Of a stretch of DNA of 64,000 bases, positions 11,103-16,255 are shown piece after piece (the stretch's first letter is position 1; every line of letters begins with the position of its first letter). The translations under genes were made by a program, and so were the position numbers. Under the pieces are notes generated by a model. That model saw only the letters and a list, made by a program, of their open reading frames with translations, ran no database searches and was not told where the DNA came from. Location of the stretch: NCBI RefSeq assembly GCF_055900595.2, contig NZ_CM148325.1, one strand, 5' to 3'.

Positions 11103-12095
11103 ATGGTGAAATCGACGTTATGTATAACCATTGATTTCATGAATATGTCGCAGCTAACTGAACGGACCTTTACGCCATCTGAATCTCTCAGCAGCCTGTC
11201 ACTTTTTCTTAGTCTGGCACGTGGACAGTGTCGGCCGGGTAAATTTTGGCATCGCCGTAGTTTTCGCCAGAAATTTTTGCTGCGCTCGTTGATTATGCCG
11301 CGTTTAAGCGTTGAGTGGATGAACGAACTTTCCCACTGGCCGAATCTCCATGTGTTGTTAACGCGCCAGCCGCGACTGCCTGTGCGTCTGCATCGCCCTT
11401 ACCTTGCGGCGAATCTTAGCCGCAAGCAATTGCTGGAGGCGTTACGTTACCATTATGCATTGCTTCGTGCCTGCATGTCGGCAGAAGAATTCAGCTTATA
11501 TTTGAATACTCCCGGGCTGCAACTGGCGAAGCTGGAAGGCAAAAACGGCGAGCAGTTCACACTTGAGCTGACCATGATGATCTCAATGGATAAAGAAGGT
11601 GACAGCACAATCCTGTTCCGCAACAGCGAAGGTATTCCTCTGGCAGAGATCACCTTTACTCTGTGTGAATACCAGGGGAAAAGAACAATGTTTATTGGCG
11701 GGCTGCAAGGTGCGAAATGGGAAATTCCACATCAGGAAATCCAGAATGCGACGAAAGCCTGCCACGGGCTATTTCCCAAACGTCTCGTGATGGAAGCGGC
11801 CTGTCTGTTTGCCCAACGTTTGCAGGTAGAGCAGATCATTGCCGTCAGCAATGAAACACATATTTACCGCAGCCTGCGTTATCGCGATAAAGAAGGCAAG
11901 ATCCATGCTGATTACAACGCGTTCTGGGAGTCGGTTGGCGGCGTATGTGATGCTGAACGCCATTACCGCCTTCCGGCACAGATAGCACGAAAAGAGATTG
12001 CCGAAATCGCCAGTAAAAAACGGGCTGAATACCGTCGGCGCTATGAGATGCTCGACGCTATTCAGCCACAAATGGCCACGATGTTTCGCGGTTAA
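11103..12095 (+). CDS. ybjX: VirK/YbjX-family protein
   Basis: 330-aa ORF divergent from macA, in the position of ybjX; start codon not verified. Confidence 0.8.
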   Translation: MVKSTLCITIDFMNMSQLTERTFTPSESLSSLSLFLSLARGQCRPGKFWHRRSFRQKFLLRSLIMPRLSVEWMNELSHWPNLHVLLTRQPRLPVRLHRPYLAANLSRKQLLEALRYHYALLRACMSAEEFSLYLNTPGLQLAKLEGKNGEQFTLELTMMISMDKEGDSTILFRNSEGIPLAEITFTLCEYQGKRTMFIGGLQGAKWEIPHQEIQNATKACHGLFPKRLVMEAACLFAQRLQVEQIIAVSNETHIYRSLRYRDKEGKIHADYNAFWESVGGVCDAERHYRLPAQIARKEIAEIASKKRAEYRRRYEMLDAIQPQMATMFRG

Positions 12096-13750
12096 TCCGC
12101 GCGACCGCGCGCCAGCCACAGCACGCGTGAGAACATTTTTTTCAGCAGCGTCGGTACGGAATCCACACCACGACGTCCTGCCTCCATTGCCACTTCAATG
12201 GCAAGATCGGGTTTGGAAGAGCGATGGATCGCTTTCGAGATAATTTTACGCAGATTCATCGGCACATTTTCCGGGATCTGCGCCACGCGGTGGAACACAT
12301 CGGAAAATCCCTGGCGATACATAAAATGTTCCATATCCAGCGCCGGTAACGCCGTTAAATGTTCTCGTTCGGCTTCCCGATCGTTATTCAACAGGCTGCG
12401 TACCGTAGCGGCATATTTCTTCCCTGCTTCATCGCCATCGACCAGTACATGCCATTCAATCCCCATCCGGCGGGCGAATTTAACCAGTGGCTTTAGCCCG
12501 GACTGGGCAAACTCAATGACCTTGATCCCTTCGGCATCAAAATGATGTCCACACTGACGCGCCAGTTCATTGATAACCCAGGTTTCCGTTTCGCCTTCCA
12601 CCAGCAGCCAGCAGCGAGCAAACAGCGATGACGGACGGTTAAAACGAATGTGGAAAGAGATACGTCGGCTGTCTTCGGTACTCAAGCCACTCGGACCCAA
12701 ACGCCAGGCGGCAACGCGAGAGGACTCACGTACCAGACGGCAAACATGCTCTACCGGCGTTAACGAAAGCAACTCACCCGAGTTGGTGGTGGCAATGCGC
12801 TGCAATGGCAGAAGATTCAACAGATGCCAGGCAACTGAAAGCATAATGGGGTGTAAACGGGTTTCTGGATCTTCGATCAGCAACAATGGACGGGCGTCTT
12901 TATCCAGTCGCAATGTGCCTTTTGCCTGCAATAAAGTAGCAAACAGGCCGAGCAAAATAACCCGATACGAGCGCCCTCCTGGTCGGTCAATCATCCGGTT
13001 GATGATATCCAGATAGCGCCAGCTTCGTTGCTCATTACTGGCCCGCCGCCGCATTAAACGATATCGCGCTTGTCCGGCCCCCTGTTCAGAGAAATAATGC
13101 TCAAGCAGCTGTACCATTGCGGAAAGTCCCTGACGAATCTGCCCATCAGAGAGATTTTGCGGATGTGAGGATAACTCACGGGCGAGGAAATCGAGCTGGC
13201 GCGCGGTGACTTCCACATTAGGGACATTTGGCACCGTGCCGTTACGAATACGGCGCATAAAACGGGCATCACGCAAGCGCAGCACCGGCATTAAACGCAC
13301 CAGATGGCGTGCCTGATCGTTAATATCCTCGACATCAATCGGATGTCCGTCTTTATCGAGAAAACTGCGGAGTGTCATCACACTGCCATCTTCCGCACTC
13401 TCTCCTTCCAGGCGATAAAAAATTCGATGATAACCATCGGTGCATGGCGTCCAGCACGCTTCCAGCGGCCGATAGCGGCGAACCCGATGTCGGCCTGGCA
13501 GCGATTCGCGGAAGGTCAAAATAATATGCAGATGATGTTCTCGCCCGTTGATATCTCCCGGCGGGAACCAGAAATCGTCGCGCTCAAAATGGTAGAGATC
13601 TGATTCTGGCGATAGCAGCAGAGTTAAGGCGTCCAGCAAGCTGGATTTACCCCACGCGTTCTCCCCAATCAGGACGTTGTTTTGTTCCAGCATCAACGAC
13701 AAACGGTTGATACCGCGAAAACCCACAATTTCAACGCGCTCAAGAATCAT
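12092..13750 (-). CDS. ybjD: Predicted OLD-family ATP-dependent endonuclease YbjD
   Basis: 552-aa ORF; N-terminal P-loop GENAWGKSS; position conserved. Confidence 0.85.
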   Translation of the reverse strand: MILERVEIVGFRGINRLSLMLEQNNVLIGENAWGKSSLLDALTLLLSPESDLYHFERDDFWFPPGDINGREHHLHIILTFRESLPGRHRVRRYRPLEACWTPCTDGYHRIFYRLEGESAEDGSVMTLRSFLDKDGHPIDVEDINDQARHLVRLMPVLRLRDARFMRRIRNGTVPNVPNVEVTARQLDFLARELSSHPQNLSDGQIRQGLSAMVQLLEHYFSEQGAGQARYRLMRRRASNEQRSWRYLDIINRMIDRPGGRSYRVILLGLFATLLQAKGTLRLDKDARPLLLIEDPETRLHPIMLSVAWHLLNLLPLQRIATTNSGELLSLTPVEHVCRLVRESSRVAAWRLGPSGLSTEDSRRISFHIRFNRPSSLFARCWLLVEGETETWVINELARQCGHHFDAEGIKVIEFAQSGLKPLVKFARRMGIEWHVLVDGDEAGKKYAATVRSLLNNDREAEREHLTALPALDMEHFMYRQGFSDVFHRVAQIPENVPMNLRKIISKAIHRSSKPDLAIEVAMEAGRRGVDSVPTLLKKMFSRVLWLARGRAD

Positions 13751-14175
13751 ATCCCCTCCAGAAATATGTGACTTATCCTTTACGCTGGCAGTATAACGGG
13801 AAAGGCCTTGCTAATACGTGATGACATCACATTTAAGCATGGCAAATGTCTGAAAAATGAGCGAATAATCGCGTTATACTCCCTCTTGCTGATAAGTCTG
13901 CAAAAACAACAAAATCAAATAATTAGCATGATAAATTATTTTTTATTACGCCTAAAGGATTAAATCTTTTGCTTGCACTACACTGTCAATCAGACAAATG
14001 ACTATATGGGGCAACCCGCTGTTGCCCTAAATCAAATTTACTGGATTTATTTATCTGGTGAATGACTCGCCTTCGTTTTTAAAATAGCCGCGCATTATTT
14101 CCGTCGTCACTTTTTTACGACGACCCTATAAAACGACCATATTTTTCACAGGGTCAATTTTTAATTGAGGTGGAT

Positions 14176-14871
14176 ATGTTCAGAAAATTAGCAGCTGAAT
14201 GTTTTGGTACTTTCTGGCTTGTTTTTGGTGGCTGTGGTAGTGCCGTACTGGCCGCAGGCTTCCCGGAATTAGGCATTGGTTTTGCCGGCGTGGCGCTGGC
14301 ATTCGGTTTAACCGTTCTGACGATGGCCTTCGCTGTTGGTCATATTTCTGGTGGTCATTTTAACCCGGCGGTCACTATTGGCTTATGGGCTGGCGGACGT
14401 TTTCCGGCAAAAGAAGTCGTTGGCTACGTAATTGCCCAGGTTGTCGGCGGTATTGTTGCAGCGGCGCTGCTGTATTTAATTGCCAGTGGTAAAACGGGAT
14501 TTGACGCGGCAGCCAGCGGTTTTGCTTCTAACGGTTATGGCGAGCATTCACCAGGCGGTTATTCCATGCTTTCCGCGCTGGTAGTTGAACTGGTATTGAG
14601 TGCAGGTTTCTTGCTGGTGATCCACGGCGCAACCGACAAATTCGCTCCGGCGGGTTTTGCACCAATTGCCATTGGTCTGGCATTAACGCTGATTCACTTA
14701 ATCAGTATTCCGGTGACTAACACTTCCGTTAACCCGGCGCGCAGTACTGCGGTTGCCATCTTCCAGGGCGGCTGGGCGTTAGAACAACTGTGGTTCTTCT
14801 GGGTAGTGCCAATTATCGGCGGTATTATCGGTGGTCTGATTTACCGGACTCTGCTGGAAAAACGTAATTAA
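14176..14871 (+). CDS. aqpZ: Aquaporin Z
   Basis: 231 aa from [19 protein letters not shown]; two NPA motifs (HFNPAVT and SVNPARS). Confidence 0.95.
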
Positions 14872-14881
14872 TTAACGCAGA

Positions 14882-14910
14882 AGGCCTGGCGCAATGTCAG
14901 GCCTTTTTTA
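14882..14910 (+). terminator. Intrinsic terminator of aqpZ
   Basis: Stem aggcctg/caggcct followed by tttttt. Confidence 0.75.
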
Positions 14911-14959
14911 AATATATTGATTCATCTTCCTGTTGCGCTCCTTGATGTGTTAAGCCACA

Positions 14960-15200
14960 TATAGTCACTGGCGCAGGGAGCGCGCAGGGGGCGGCCAATC
15001 GCCGCCGCCCCCTGCCCCCCCGGGCTCTGGCGAACAAAATCGCCGCTGCGCGGTGCCCTCGACTTATCCCTTGCGGCTACCGGGTCGGGCGCGAGGTAAC
15101 ATCCCGGTAAAACGCGCCCTCAGCCCACATCCATGTGGGCTGCCCCGGCCTTCAGGGAACGCCTCGGCGATTTTGACGCCACCAACACCGGTGCGGTTTG
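14960..15200. repeat. GC-rich structured extragenic element with nested inverted repeats
   Basis: Dyads cagggggcggc/gccgccccctg (about 14985-15014), cccacat/atgtggg (15124-15139) and a long-range pairing caaaatcgcc (about 15034-15043) with ggcgattttg (about 15166-15175); non-coding, sharply more GC-rich than flanks. Confidence 0.55.
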
Positions 15201-15355
15201 TAATTAAAGCGCAAGAATATCTTTAAATGAAAATGAATACCCTACCGATCCTTATGCATAACATTTCCTTTTAATTGCAACTTTACTCGTCCTTCCGCTT
15301 TCAGTAGTGTGTCATCGCGCATTTCGACTTCTTTCTTTGCAAGGACTGGTTTTTC

Positions 15356-16255
15356 ATGTTTTCTGGGCTGTTAATCATTCTGGTTCCCCTGATTGTGGGT
15401 TACCTCATTCCGCTTCGCCAAAAAGCTGCATTAAAGGTTATTAATCAGCTATTAAGCTGGATGGTTTACCTTATTCTCTTTTTTATGGGTATCAGTCTGG
15501 CGTTTCTCGATAACCTCGCCAGTAACCTGTTGGCGATTCTGCATTATTCCGCCGTCAGTATTACCGTTATTTTACTGTGTAATATTGCCGCCCTGATGTG
15601 GCTGGAGCGAGGCCTACCGTGGCGCAACCACCATCAGCAAGAAAAACTCCCGTCACGTATTGCGATGGCGCTGGAGTCCCTCAAGCTCTGCGGTGTGGTG
15701 GTGATTGGCTTTGCTATTGGCCTTAGCGGATTAGGTTTCTTACAACACGCTACGGAAGCCAGCGAATACACGTTAATTCTGCTACTTTTCCTCGTCGGTA
15801 TTCAGTTGCGCAATAATGGCATGACCTTAAAGCAGATTGTCCTTAATCGCCGGGGAATGATTGTCGCTGTGGTGGTGGTGGCCAGTTCTTTAATTGGTGG
15901 TTTAATTAACGCCTTTATTCTTGATCTTCCCATCAATACCGCGCTGGCAATGGCTTCCGGTTTCGGCTGGTATTCTCTTTCCGGTATTTTATTGACCGAA
16001 TCTTTTGGTCCGGTAATCGGGAGCGCGGCGTTTTTTAATGATTTGGCCCGTGAGCTGATTGCTATTATGTTGATCCCTGGGCTGATTCGCCGTAGCCGCT
16101 CGACTGCACTGGGCTTATGCGGTGCAACCTCGATGGATTTCACCCTGCCCGTTCTTCAACGTACTGGCGGGCTGGATATGGTCCCGGCGGCGATTGTTCA
16201 CGGTTTTATTCTCAGCCTGTTAGTACCTATCCTCATCGCCTTTTTCTCCGCGTAA
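15356..16255 (+). CDS. lysO: Lysine exporter LysO (YbjE)
   Basis: 299-aa polytopic membrane ORF in the position of ybjE between aqpZ and hcp. Confidence 0.88.
   Translation: MFSGLLIILVPLIVGYLIPLRQKAALKVINQLLSWMVYLILFFMGISLAFLDNLASNLLAILHYSAVSITVILLCNIAALMWLERGLPWRNHHQQEKLPSRIAMALESLKLCGVVVIGFAIGLSGLGFLQHATEASEYTLILLLFLVGIQLRNNGMTLKQIVLNRRGMIVAVVVVASSLIGGLINAFILDLPINTALAMASGFGWYSLSGILLTESFGPVIGSAAFFNDLARELIAIMLIPGLIRRSRSTALGLCGATSMDFTLPVLQRTGGLDMVPAAIVHGFILSLLVPILIAFFSA

What the first reader, a model, noticed from the sequence alone, without database searches (positions are those of the whole stretch)
14960..15200. GC-rich, highly structured extragenic element between aqpZ and lysO
A non-coding segment of about 240 bp is sharply more GC-rich than its surroundings and contains nested dyad symmetries: cagggggcggc/gccgccccctg, cccacat/atgtggg, and a long-range pairing of caaaatcgcc (about 15034-15043) with ggcgattttg (about 15166-15175). 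It is not a canonical REP unit. It could be a member of another extragenic repeat family (Box C/RSA-like), a structured RNA, or a remnant of a small mobile element.
Basis: seen in the sequence. Interest (0 to 1): 0.45.

Follow-up and report, generated by a model that had tools for sequence, protein, structure and literature searches.

The report
Known E. coli replication-risk repeat (RRS/TRIP1a)
The GC-rich folded segment between aqpZ and lysO is real, but it is the already described TRIP1a repeat, also called RRS-lysO, which published experiments show stalls lagging-strand DNA synthesis and leaves programmed single-stranded gaps at the edge of the chromosome's terminus region.

Summary
Window 14932-15197 is a 266-bp block with 67% G+C, against 37-40% in its flanks. 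The element is not a new repeat family. It is TRIP1a (Rudd 1999; Li et al. 2024), renamed RRS-lysO, a "replication risk sequence" (Pham et al. 2023, 2024; Kusi-Appauh et al. 2026). It is found in 5425 of 5426 complete E. coli genomes, at a median of 3 places per genome. Other loci are dusC-yohP and a shortened copy at putP-efeU. It also occurs in Klebsiella, Pseudocitrobacter and Citrobacter. The window carries the published G-quadruplex motif with one mismatch, on the minus strand at 15002-15021. GC skew and synteny place that strand on the lagging-strand template, as in K-12. My additions are small. A 76-pair fold of the G-rich strand is kept by 17 compensatory pairs. Two adjacent hairpins have conserved GGA loops that resemble the Rfam TwoAYGGAY motif but score below its threshold. 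Strain S88 carries both copies flipped relative to K-12. I found no promoter and no support from a CsrA crosslinking dataset. Verdict: already known, low interest.

The parts
14932..15197 (-). TRIP1a repeat, also called RRS-lysO: 266 bp, 66.9% G+C. The strand given is the G-rich (G4) strand.
   Evidence: Li et al. 2024 place TRIP1a 158 bp upstream of the ybjE/lysO start codon and give its length as 266 bp; lysO starts at 15356. The element is 95.7% identical to K-12-type strains and 93% identical to the K-12 dusC copy over 14925-15196. G+C.
15002..15021 (-). G-quadruplex-forming motif GGGGGGGCAGGGGGCGGCGG. The published RRS motif is GGGGGTGCAGGGGGCGGCGG, so there is one mismatch.
   Evidence: the only match in the 64-kb window, against 0 expected by chance. 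Motif quoted from Pham et al. 2024. The core is conserved in 22 of 24 aligned copies.
14984..15015 (.). Perfect 12-bp GC hairpin (GCAGGGGGCGGC / GCCGCCCCCTGC). On the minus strand its 5' arm holds three of the four G-runs of the G4 motif.
   Evidence: I3. In the alignment this is helix 11: 12 pairs, 4 with compensatory double changes, 99.6% of cells paired.
14935..14983 (.). Left-end hairpin, GCGCTCC(T/C) pairing with (A/G)GGAGCGC, with a 36-nt variable loop.
   Evidence: I15. Helix 12: 8 pairs, with UA changing to CG in 9 sequences at one pair.
15018..15187 (-). Long closing helix: 5' side 15187-15168 (TTGGTGGCG.CAAAATCG) pairs with 3' side 15042-15018. It encloses a multi-branch core.
   Evidence: Helices 1-6. 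Column-to-window mapping.
15121..15142 (-). Hairpin 1, CAGCCCAC-ATGGAT-GTGGGCTG. The loop CATGGATG is invariant in 24 of 24 copies.
   Evidence: I10. Helix 7 has 3 compensatory pairs. Loop table.
15087..15119 (-). Hairpin 2, GGGCGCG...AC-CGGGAT-GT...CGCGCCC. The loop is CA-N-GGA-Y-G in the other copies.
   Evidence: Helices 8-9. Loop table. Aligned to the second hairpin of Rfam TwoAYGGAY at sub-threshold score.
15016..15139 (.). Internal segment of about 125 bp that is missing from the short (TRIP1b-type) copies. It is bounded by the direct repeat CTGCCCC (15012-15018 and 15140-15146).
   Evidence: Alignments. Li et al. describe TRIP1b as TRIP1a lacking an internal 125 bp.
14881..14911 (+). 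aqpZ intrinsic terminator (AAGGCCTG...CAGGCCTT followed by a T run). It is a neighbour, not part of the repeat.
   Evidence: (I16) and the sequence. [quoted passage not shown]

Best explanation
This is the lysO copy of the E. coli replication risk sequence (RRS-lysO, also called TRIP1a).

It works at the DNA level. When the replication fork unwinds it, the G-rich strand folds quickly into a G-quadruplex and/or an extensive hairpin structure. In this window that strand is the minus strand, which is the lagging-strand template. The folded template blocks the lagging-strand polymerase. Synthesis restarts at the next primer and leaves a single-stranded gap of up to about 2 kb, onto which SSB and RecA load.

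Together with its inverted partner near dusC, on the other side of dif, it flanks the Ter macrodomain. The discoverers propose that it acts as a topological relief valve during termination and segregation.

Shown by published experiments: polymerase blockage, gap formation wherever the element is placed, conditional essentiality of at least one copy, and effects on supercoiling.

Shown here: the identity, position, G4 motif and strand of this copy, and selection for base pairing of the whole fold.

Inferred: that this strain's copy behaves like the K-12 copy. The relief-valve function is still the authors' hypothesis.
For: Identity
- The element lies between aqpZ and lysO and ends 158 bp upstream of the lysO start codon, as published for TRIP1a.
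- It is 95.7% identical to K-12-type strains and 100% identical to one sequenced strain.
- It is 93% identical to the K-12 dusC copy over 272-274 bp.
- The family structure seen here matches Li et al. 2024: a long copy at lysO, a long copy at dusC-yohP and a short copy at putP-efeU.

G4 motif and strand
- There is one match to the published 20-nt motif in the window, on the minus strand.
- Plus-strand GC skew is negative in 13 of 15 windows of 8 kb.
- The gene order ybjD, aqpZ, lysO, hcp is the reverse complement of K-12 coordinates 912-918 kb.

Function (literature)
- RecA and SSB peaks at both RRS disappear when the RRS is deleted.
- Pol I, II and IV are blocked at the G4. New gaps appear at ectopic RRS. 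A double deletion is obtained only together with a 200-kb amplification. Supercoiling changes genome-wide.
- Single-molecule assays show a gap at essentially every replisome passage.

- 99.0% of 1810 pair cells are standard pairs, against 94.6% in shuffles.
- 17 pairs carry compensatory changes, against 11.3 in shuffles (0 of 500 shuffles reach the observed value) and 0-3 when partners are slid.
- G-T wobbles favour the G4 strand: 91 against 8, or 20 against 6 without helix 1.
Against: - Nothing contradicts the identification.
- The claim that the G4 must sit on the lagging-strand template is weakened by natural variation. In strain S88 both copies are flipped relative to K-12, and the lysO copy is the short form. 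Li et al. count 27% of TRIP1a copies and 49% of TRIP1c copies in reverse orientation.
- The compensatory changes in the C-rich arm of the 14984-15015 hairpin show selection for the hairpin. A G4 alone would not require them, so which structure actually blocks the polymerase in vivo is not settled.
- The window copy has a T-to-G change in the first loop of the G4 motif, and its effect is untested.
Confidence: 0.93

Rival explanations
1. The element encodes, or is part of, a structured RNA made from the G-rich strand. Its two adjacent GGA-loop hairpins would bind a protein dimer such as CsrA. That would make it a relative of the Rfam TwoAYGGAY motif, with the DNA-level effects being secondary or additional.
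For: - The fold has 17 compensatory pairs, and wobble pairs are biased to one strand.
- The hairpin-1 loop CAUGGAUG is invariant in 24 of 24 copies. The hairpin-2 loop is CA-N-GGA-Y-G.
- The K-12 form UACAGGGAUGU matches the CsrA SELEX consensus RUACARGGAUGU. That consensus is from my memory of Dubey et al. 2005 and was not checked here.
- TwoAYGGAY is the best or near-best Rfam match on that strand for two copies that are about 75% identical: the window at 26.4 bits and Citrobacter at 25.6 bits.
- Li et al. predict a stable 'double-Y' RNA fold.
Against: - Both Rfam scores are well below the gathering score of 43, and a Klebsiella copy gives no match at all.
- There is no sigma-70-like promoter on either strand in 14800-15400.
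- In this window and at putP-efeU the G-rich strand is antisense to both neighbouring genes. At the K-12 dusC locus it is co-directional with dusC. There is therefore no consistent transcription context.
- In the Potts et al. 2017 table, dusC and ybjE are marked 'No' in all four yes/no columns (their headers were not shown in the excerpt retrieved) and are not significantly regulated.
- G-T wobbles are tolerated in folded single-stranded DNA too, so the strand bias fits the DNA model equally well.
- The short copies lack both hairpins.
Confidence: 0.08
2. The element is a non-autonomous mobile element (MITE-like) or its remnant, and its copies reflect past transposition rather than selection for a chromosomal function.
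For: - Copy number varies from 1 to 10 places per E. coli genome and reaches 13 in a K. pneumoniae chromosome.
- In both the aqpZ-lysO and dusC-yohP intergenic regions the element occurs in either orientation in different strains, with unrelated immediate flanks.
- There are extra loci in some strains: alx-sstT and copA-ybaP according to Li et al..
Against: - No terminal inverted repeats are seen at the ends in the copy alignments, and none appear in the repeat scan of the window copy.
- No target-site duplication is visible in the alignments of copies with their flanks.
- No copy in the 36 fetched loci lies next to a transposase gene.
- Positions are fixed at a handful of loci across thousands of genomes.
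- Compensatory evolution indicates long-term selection on the fold.
- Experiments show a phenotype when both copies are lost.
Confidence: 0.05

Closest known systems
TRIP1 repeats (TRIP1a-e) of E. coli: Rudd 1999, Res Microbiol; Li et al. 2024, Genes 15:236 (PMC10888264)
   Same: - The locus is the same: between aqpZ and ybjE/lysO, ending 158 bp upstream of the lysO start codon.
- The length (266 bp) and G+C content match: 66.9% here, against the 62-65% Li et al. give for the five TRIP1 types.
- About 96% identical to the K-12 copy.
- The same sister copies are present: TRIP1c at yohI(dusC)/yohG(mdtQ), and the short TRIP1b at putP/ycdN(efeU) with an internal 125-bp deletion.
- The same orientation polymorphism is seen.
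   Different: This strain has a 10-bp deletion in the flank between the aqpZ terminator and the repeat, so the repeat starts 60 bp rather than 70 bp after the aqpZ stop codon. Its sequence differs from K-12 by about 4%.
RRS, replication risk sequences (RRS-lysO, RRS-dusC): Pham et al. 2023 NAR (PMC10287960); Pham et al. 2024 (PMC10592627 / PMC11194060); Kusi-Appauh et al. 2026 bioRxiv
   Same: This is the same element under another name. It is GC-rich, lies next to lysO, carries the G4 motif, and has the G4 strand on the inferred lagging-strand template.
   Different: - RRS is defined as a 222-bp core, while the homology block is 266-272 bp.
- The window allele has G instead of T at position 6 of the 20-nt G4 motif.
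- The function of this allele has not been tested.
Rfam RF01731 TwoAYGGAY RNA motif (Weinberg et al. 2010, PMC2864571)
   Same: - The architecture is the same: a long closing stem around two adjacent hairpins joined by AG, each with a GGA-containing hexaloop.
- The first loop, AUGGAU, fits AYGGAY exactly.
- It is found in gamma-proteobacteria.
- Its function is unknown.
   Different: - Scores are 26.4 and 25.6 bits against a gathering score of 43.
- The second loop is mostly AGGGAY, not AYGGAY.
- The RRS has extra helices and a G4 hairpin outside the motif.
- NC_000913 does not appear in the stored part of the authors' alignment.
REP/BIME elements, and the pilE G4 of Neisseria gonorrhoeae
   Same: - REP/BIME elements are also GC-rich, palindromic and extragenic, with proposed roles in DNA topology.
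- The pilE G4 is the other bacterial G4 reported to trigger gaps, and the RRS authors cite it.
   Different: - The element has no REP consensus, and its unit is far longer and much lower in copy number.
- It shares no sequence with the pilE G4 and has no role in antigenic variation.

Membership tests
TRIP1a (E. coli intergenic repeat) | Lies between aqpZ and ybjE/lysO, 158 bp upstream of the lysO start codon and about 70 bp after the aqpZ stop codon. | tested here: met
   lysO starts at 15356 and aqpZ ends at 14871. The conserved block starts at 14932/14933 and ends at about 15197. The left spacing is 60 bp because of a 10-bp indel relative to K-12.
TRIP1a (E. coli intergenic repeat) | About 266 bp, 62-65% G+C, and highly similar to the K-12 TRIP1a and TRIP1c copies. 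| tested here: met
   266 bp with 66.9% G+C. 95.7% identity to K-12-type strains. 93.1% identity to the K-12 dusC copy.
TRIP1a (E. coli intergenic repeat) | A low-copy dispersed family at fixed loci, including a short form that lacks an internal 125 bp. | tested here: met
   Median 3 places per genome in 5425 of 5426 genomes. The dusC-yohP locus is confirmed. The short putP-efeU form is confirmed.
RRS (replication risk sequence) | Carries the G-quadruplex motif GGGGGTGCAGGGGGCGGCGG on one strand. | tested here: met
   One match at 15002-15021 on the minus strand, with 1 mismatch. The motif core is conserved in 22 of 24 copies.
RRS (replication risk sequence) | The G4 strand is the lagging-strand template. 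| tested here: met
   This is indirect. Plus-strand GC skew is negative across the window. The window is the reverse complement of K-12 912-918 kb on the clockwise replichore. In K-12 the motif is on the + strand at lysO and on the - strand at dusC.
RRS (replication risk sequence) | Paired with an inverted copy, each about 650 kb from dif, flanking the Ter macrodomain. | not testable with these tools
   The window holds only one copy. Only the homologous K-12 position, 914.9-915.4 kb, is known.
RRS (replication risk sequence) | Blocks DNA polymerases and triggers RecA/SSB-bound post-replication gaps. | not testable with these tools
   This is experimental. It is published for the K-12 alleles. 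Here I can only show that both strands fold far better than shuffled sequence.
Rfam TwoAYGGAY (RF01731) | Score at or above the gathering score of 43 bits. | tested here: not met
   26.4 bits for the window and 25.6 bits for Citrobacter. No match for Klebsiella copies.
Rfam TwoAYGGAY (RF01731) | Two terminal loops with AYGGAY, closed by a P1 stem. | tested here: inconclusive
   Loop 1 is AUGGAU in 24 of 24 copies. Loop 2 is A-N-GGA-Y in 23 copies, but N is a pyrimidine in only 2 of them, and the window itself has CGGGAU. A P1-like closing stem is present.
REP / BIME | Imperfect palindromes of about 35 bp with the REP consensus, usually in clusters. | tested here: not met
   Nothing in the element matches the REP-derived naRNA4 Rfam model, whereas a true REP next to the putP-efeU copy does match it. 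NC_000913 has no annotated feature in this intergenic region.
Box C / RSA repeats | Match to the Box C (about 56 bp) or RSA (about 152 bp) consensus. | not tested
The positive identification as TRIP1 makes this unnecessary.
MITE / small mobile element | Terminal inverted repeats, target-site duplication, and empty versus filled sites. | tested here: not met
   No inverted repeats or duplications at the ends in 28 aligned copies with their flanks. No empty site was seen at the lysO or dusC loci; only orientation and length variants were found.
CsrA-binding RNA | Transcribed RNA with GGA motifs in hairpin loops that CsrA binds in vivo. | tested here: inconclusive
   The GGA loops are present and conserved. 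There is no promoter-like site. dusC and ybjE are marked 'No' in all four yes/no columns of the Potts et al. 2017 table, whose headers were not shown in the excerpt. No RNA-seq tool was available.

The most novel reading that the evidence does not exclude
What selection maintains in RRS/TRIP1 may be the whole fold of about 250 nt of the G-rich strand, not only a G-quadruplex. That fold includes two adjacent hairpins with invariant or near-invariant CA-N-GGA-Y-G loops. These loops could be a recognition site for a dimeric factor acting on the folded single-stranded DNA or on a transcript. The element could be a divergent relative of the orphan TwoAYGGAY motif, which is common in gut metagenomes. 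That would give TwoAYGGAY a first functional lead, namely replication-gap or topology elements.
Probability: 0.12. Interest if true: 0.6.

Novelty: already known. Interest (0 to 1): 0.18.

Why it matters
The element is biologically notable. It is a programmed replication obstacle that creates single-stranded gaps at the borders of the terminus domain, and cells tolerate loss of both copies only with compensating changes. All of that is already published, so this finding adds no new kind of system.

Three small points may be useful to people working on RRS.

1. Compensatory substitutions show that the hairpins, including the one that competes with the G4, are under selection.
2. Two GGA-loop hairpins are the most conserved part of the core, and they are missing from the short copies.
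3. Natural lineages such as S88 carry both copies flipped, so the G4 sits on the leading-strand template at both loci. That is in tension with a strict lagging-strand G4 model. It fits the 2026 report that the complementary strand can also trigger gaps.

Tried and rejected
- Rfam scans of the window copy and of Klebsiella and Citrobacter copies. Nothing reached threshold. The miRNA, pestivirus and other hits on the GC hairpin are chance matches.
- TwoAYGGAY membership was rejected on score. NC_000913 does not appear in the stored part of the authors' alignment.
- A stand-alone sRNA gene. The consensus scan found no promoter-like or terminator-like site in 14800-15400. My hand-picked -35/-10 candidates were poor and not conserved between copies.
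- A CsrA sponge. The Potts et al. 2017 supplement marks dusC and ybjE 'No' in all four yes/no columns (headers not shown in the excerpt) and not significantly regulated. aqpZ was not found in the stored part of that file.
- Coding potential. The two small ORFs across the element are not conserved, because indels in Klebsiella copies break the frames.
- Simple inversion of the whole intergenic region as the cause of the orientation variants. Outside the repeat plus about 20 bp, the flanks of the flipped alleles are unrelated, so this is not a clean inversion.
- A relation to IS110 bridge RNA or IS200/IS605 omega RNA. I only considered this. No transposase gene lies next to any copy, and by eye I saw no similarity to the IS621 bridge RNA as I remember it. 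It was not tested formally.
- Box C / RSA. A literature search for descriptions returned nothing.
- The genome-wide pattern scan used a strict 21-base pattern. Its narrow taxon list (Escherichia, Klebsiella, Pseudocitrobacter) therefore understates the range that Pham et al. report for enterobacteria.

Full report
**1. The observation**

The window is E. coli. aqpZ (14170-14871, +) and lysO (15356-16255, +) flank a 484-bp intergenic region. Within it, G+C rises to 0.64-0.73 per 100 bp.

- 14984-14995 with 15004-15015, 12 of 12 complementary.
- 15121-15130 with 15133-15142, 10 of 10.
- 15035-15050 with 15160-15175, 14 of 16.

Folded as single-stranded DNA, the minus strand reaches -82.4 kcal/mol (z -5.9) and the plus strand -79.4 kcal/mol (z -5.5). 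None of 200 shuffles does as well on either strand. Only the left boundary needs correcting, to about 14932.

**2. It is a dispersed repeat**

A blastn search of complete E. coli genomes finds the sequence in 5425 of 5426 genomes, at a median of 3 and up to 10 places per genome. The plasmid collection includes some mislabelled chromosomes. In it, Klebsiella copies are about 85% identical, with up to 13 places in one record, and a Citrobacter copy is about 75% identical. A strict pattern scan of one genome per species found copies only in Escherichia species, Klebsiella and Pseudocitrobacter. It also hit three tiny low-coverage contigs in unrelated assemblies, which look like contamination.

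The other E. coli loci are dusC-yohP-mdtQ and putP-efeU. The putP-efeU copy is short and lacks the stretch equivalent to window 15016-15139, which is bounded by the direct repeat CTGCCCC.

At both the aqpZ-lysO and dusC-yohP loci, different strains carry the element in opposite orientations with unrelated immediate flanks.

**3. Identification**

A search for papers citing Rudd's 1999 survey of intergenic repeats led to two bodies of work that describe exactly this element.

- Li et al. 2024 (PMC10888264) describe TRIP1a: 266 bp, 70 bp after the aqpZ stop codon and 158 bp before the ybjE (lysO) start codon. They describe TRIP1b at putP/ycdN, which lacks an internal 125 bp, and TRIP1c at yohI(dusC)/yohG. 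Two further types occur in some strains. TRIP1a and TRIP1c are found in both orientations, and the repeats mediate large inversions.
- Pham et al. 2023 and 2024 rediscovered the same repeats as the two strongest RecA/SSB peaks on lagging-strand single-stranded DNA and named them RRS-lysO and RRS-dusC. They state that these are Rudd's TRIP1.

In the window, 158 bp upstream of lysO gives 15197 as the last base and 14932 as the first base of a 266-bp unit. That matches the boundary I had derived from the copy alignments. The left spacing is 60 bp rather than 70 bp because this strain lacks 10 bp present in K-12. The window copy is 95.7% identical to K-12-type strains and 93% identical to the K-12 dusC copy over 14925-15196.

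**4. How it works**

Published experiments, quoted, show the following.
- The G-rich strand carries a G4 motif, GGGGGTGCAGGGGGCGGCGG. It blocks Pol I, II and IV in vitro and lowers M13 replication in vivo.
- With that strand as the lagging-strand template, a gap of up to about 2 kb forms and is loaded with SSB and RecA.
- Ectopic copies create new peaks.
- Both native copies can be deleted only with a compensating 200-kb amplification, or with ectopic or inverted copies present.
- Loss or inversion of both copies reshapes supercoiling genome-wide.
- Single-molecule assays show a gap at essentially every replisome passage in that orientation. In the other orientation gaps form at lower frequency, through a structure on the complementary strand.

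The authors' functional hypothesis is a topological relief valve, or a Ter macrodomain boundary.

In the window the motif occurs once, at 15002-15021 on the minus strand, with one mismatch (T to G). Plus-strand GC skew is negative in 13 of 15 windows of 8 kb. The gene order is the reverse complement of K-12 912-918 kb on the clockwise replichore. The minus strand is therefore the lagging-strand template, as in K-12, where the motif is on the + strand at lysO and on the - strand at dusC. That this allele behaves like the K-12 allele is an inference.

I aligned 24 long copies from Escherichia, Klebsiella and Pseudocitrobacter on the G-rich strand (A5).

- RNAalifold gives a 76-pair fold, and 17 of those pairs carry compensatory double changes.
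- Counted against controls, 99.0% of cells are standard pairs, against 94.6% in shuffles. The 17 compensatory pairs compare with 11.3 in shuffles (0 of 500 reach the observed value) and 0-3 when partners are slid.
- The sequences are related, so the shuffle control overstates significance. The slid control does not have that weakness.
- G-T wobbles outnumber A-C mismatches 91 to 8, or 20 to 6 without the weak outer helix. The fold therefore belongs to the G4 strand. This fits folded DNA as well as RNA.
- The 12-bp hairpin at 14984-15015, whose 5' arm on the minus strand holds most of the G4 motif, has four compensatory pairs. For example, GGGGGCGGCGG becomes GGGGGAGGAGG, with matching G-to-T changes in the C-rich arm. 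The hairpin is therefore selected, not only the G-runs.
- The core contains two adjacent hairpins whose loops are CATGGATG (24 of 24 copies) and CA-N-GGA-Y-G.

**6. Tests of the RNA reading**

The only Rfam family that repeatedly appears on the G-rich strand is TwoAYGGAY: 26.4 bits for the window and 25.6 bits for the Citrobacter copy, against a gathering score of 43. A Klebsiella copy gives no match. Weinberg et al. describe TwoAYGGAY as a long P1 stem closing two hairpins with AYGGAY loops, found in gut metagenomes, Clostridia and gamma-proteobacteria, with no known function.

The loops also resemble CsrA sites, though that comparison rests on my memory of the SELEX consensus. Against an RNA role:
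- No promoter-like site on either strand.
- The direction of neighbouring genes relative to the G-rich strand is not consistent between loci.
- dusC and ybjE are marked 'No' in all four yes/no columns of the Potts et al. table, whose headers were not shown in the excerpt retrieved, and neither is significantly regulated.
- The short copies lack both hairpins.

I keep this as a low-probability reading.

**7. Mobile-element reading**

Copy number and orientation vary. However, I found no terminal inverted repeats, no duplications at the ends, no empty sites and no adjacent transposase gene. How the orientation variants arose is unexplained.

**8. Verdict**

The element is already known and experimentally characterised as TRIP1a / RRS-lysO. 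Interest is low for this scan. The covariation result, the GGA-loop hairpins and the concerted flip in strain S88 are minor leads for specialists.

Noticed in passing
L036 10046 (S88 lysO locus) and L032 835 (S88 dusC locus), compared with L001 2192 and L033 725 (K-12): In E. coli S88 (NC_011742) both RRS/TRIP1 copies are flipped relative to K-12. The G4 motif is on the - strand at lysO and on the + strand at dusC, and the lysO copy is the short form in a 320-bp intergenic region. If the S88 replichores match K-12, the G4 sits on the leading-strand template at both loci.
   Followed up: partly
window 14984-15015; alignment A5 columns 264-297: Several copies (the dusC copies of S88, L006 and L023, and Klebsiella L026) change C to A between the G-runs, with matching G-to-T changes in the opposite arm. 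This keeps both the hairpin and the G-runs. The hairpin competes with G4 formation yet is itself under selection.
   Followed up: partly
window about 14912, compared with L001 (K-12): The window strain lacks 10 bp (AGATGTTGTT in K-12) between the aqpZ terminator T-run and the repeat. The intergenic region is therefore 484 bp instead of 494 bp.
   Followed up: no
L007 and L019 (aqpZ-lysO, inverted long allele); L002 and L036 (inverted short allele): In strains with the inverted allele, the aqpZ terminator hairpin seen at window 14881-14905 is absent and is replaced by unrelated sequence. aqpZ transcription would then run straight into the G-rich strand of the repeat.
   Followed up: no
L009 (Pseudobutyrivibrio), L027 (Bacillus) and L030 (Ensifer), contigs of 432-583 bp: Tiny contigs with coverage below 1x in unrelated assemblies carry E. 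coli TRIP1 copies with E. coli flanks, which almost certainly reflects contamination. L027 joins a putP-type left flank to a lysO-type right flank, which looks like a TRIP1a/1b recombinant junction.
   Followed up: no
L003, L004, L013, L015, L025 and L026 (Klebsiella), just 3' of the repeat in plus orientation: Klebsiella copies are followed within about 40 bp by REP-like sequences (GTAGGCCGGATAAGGCG). Klebsiella carries many more copies than E. coli, up to 13 places in one chromosome record.
   Followed up: no
L035 1568-1895 and 10956-11344 (S88, near clpA and infA): While locating lysO in S88, I saw that the neighbouring region carries a type I-F CRISPR-Cas locus with two arrays (csy2 has an internal stop). 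This is not related to the finding.
   Followed up: no
window 12092-13750 (-): ybjD, annotated as a DUF2813 protein or ATP-dependent endonuclease, lies divergently upstream of aqpZ. I did not examine it.
   Followed up: no
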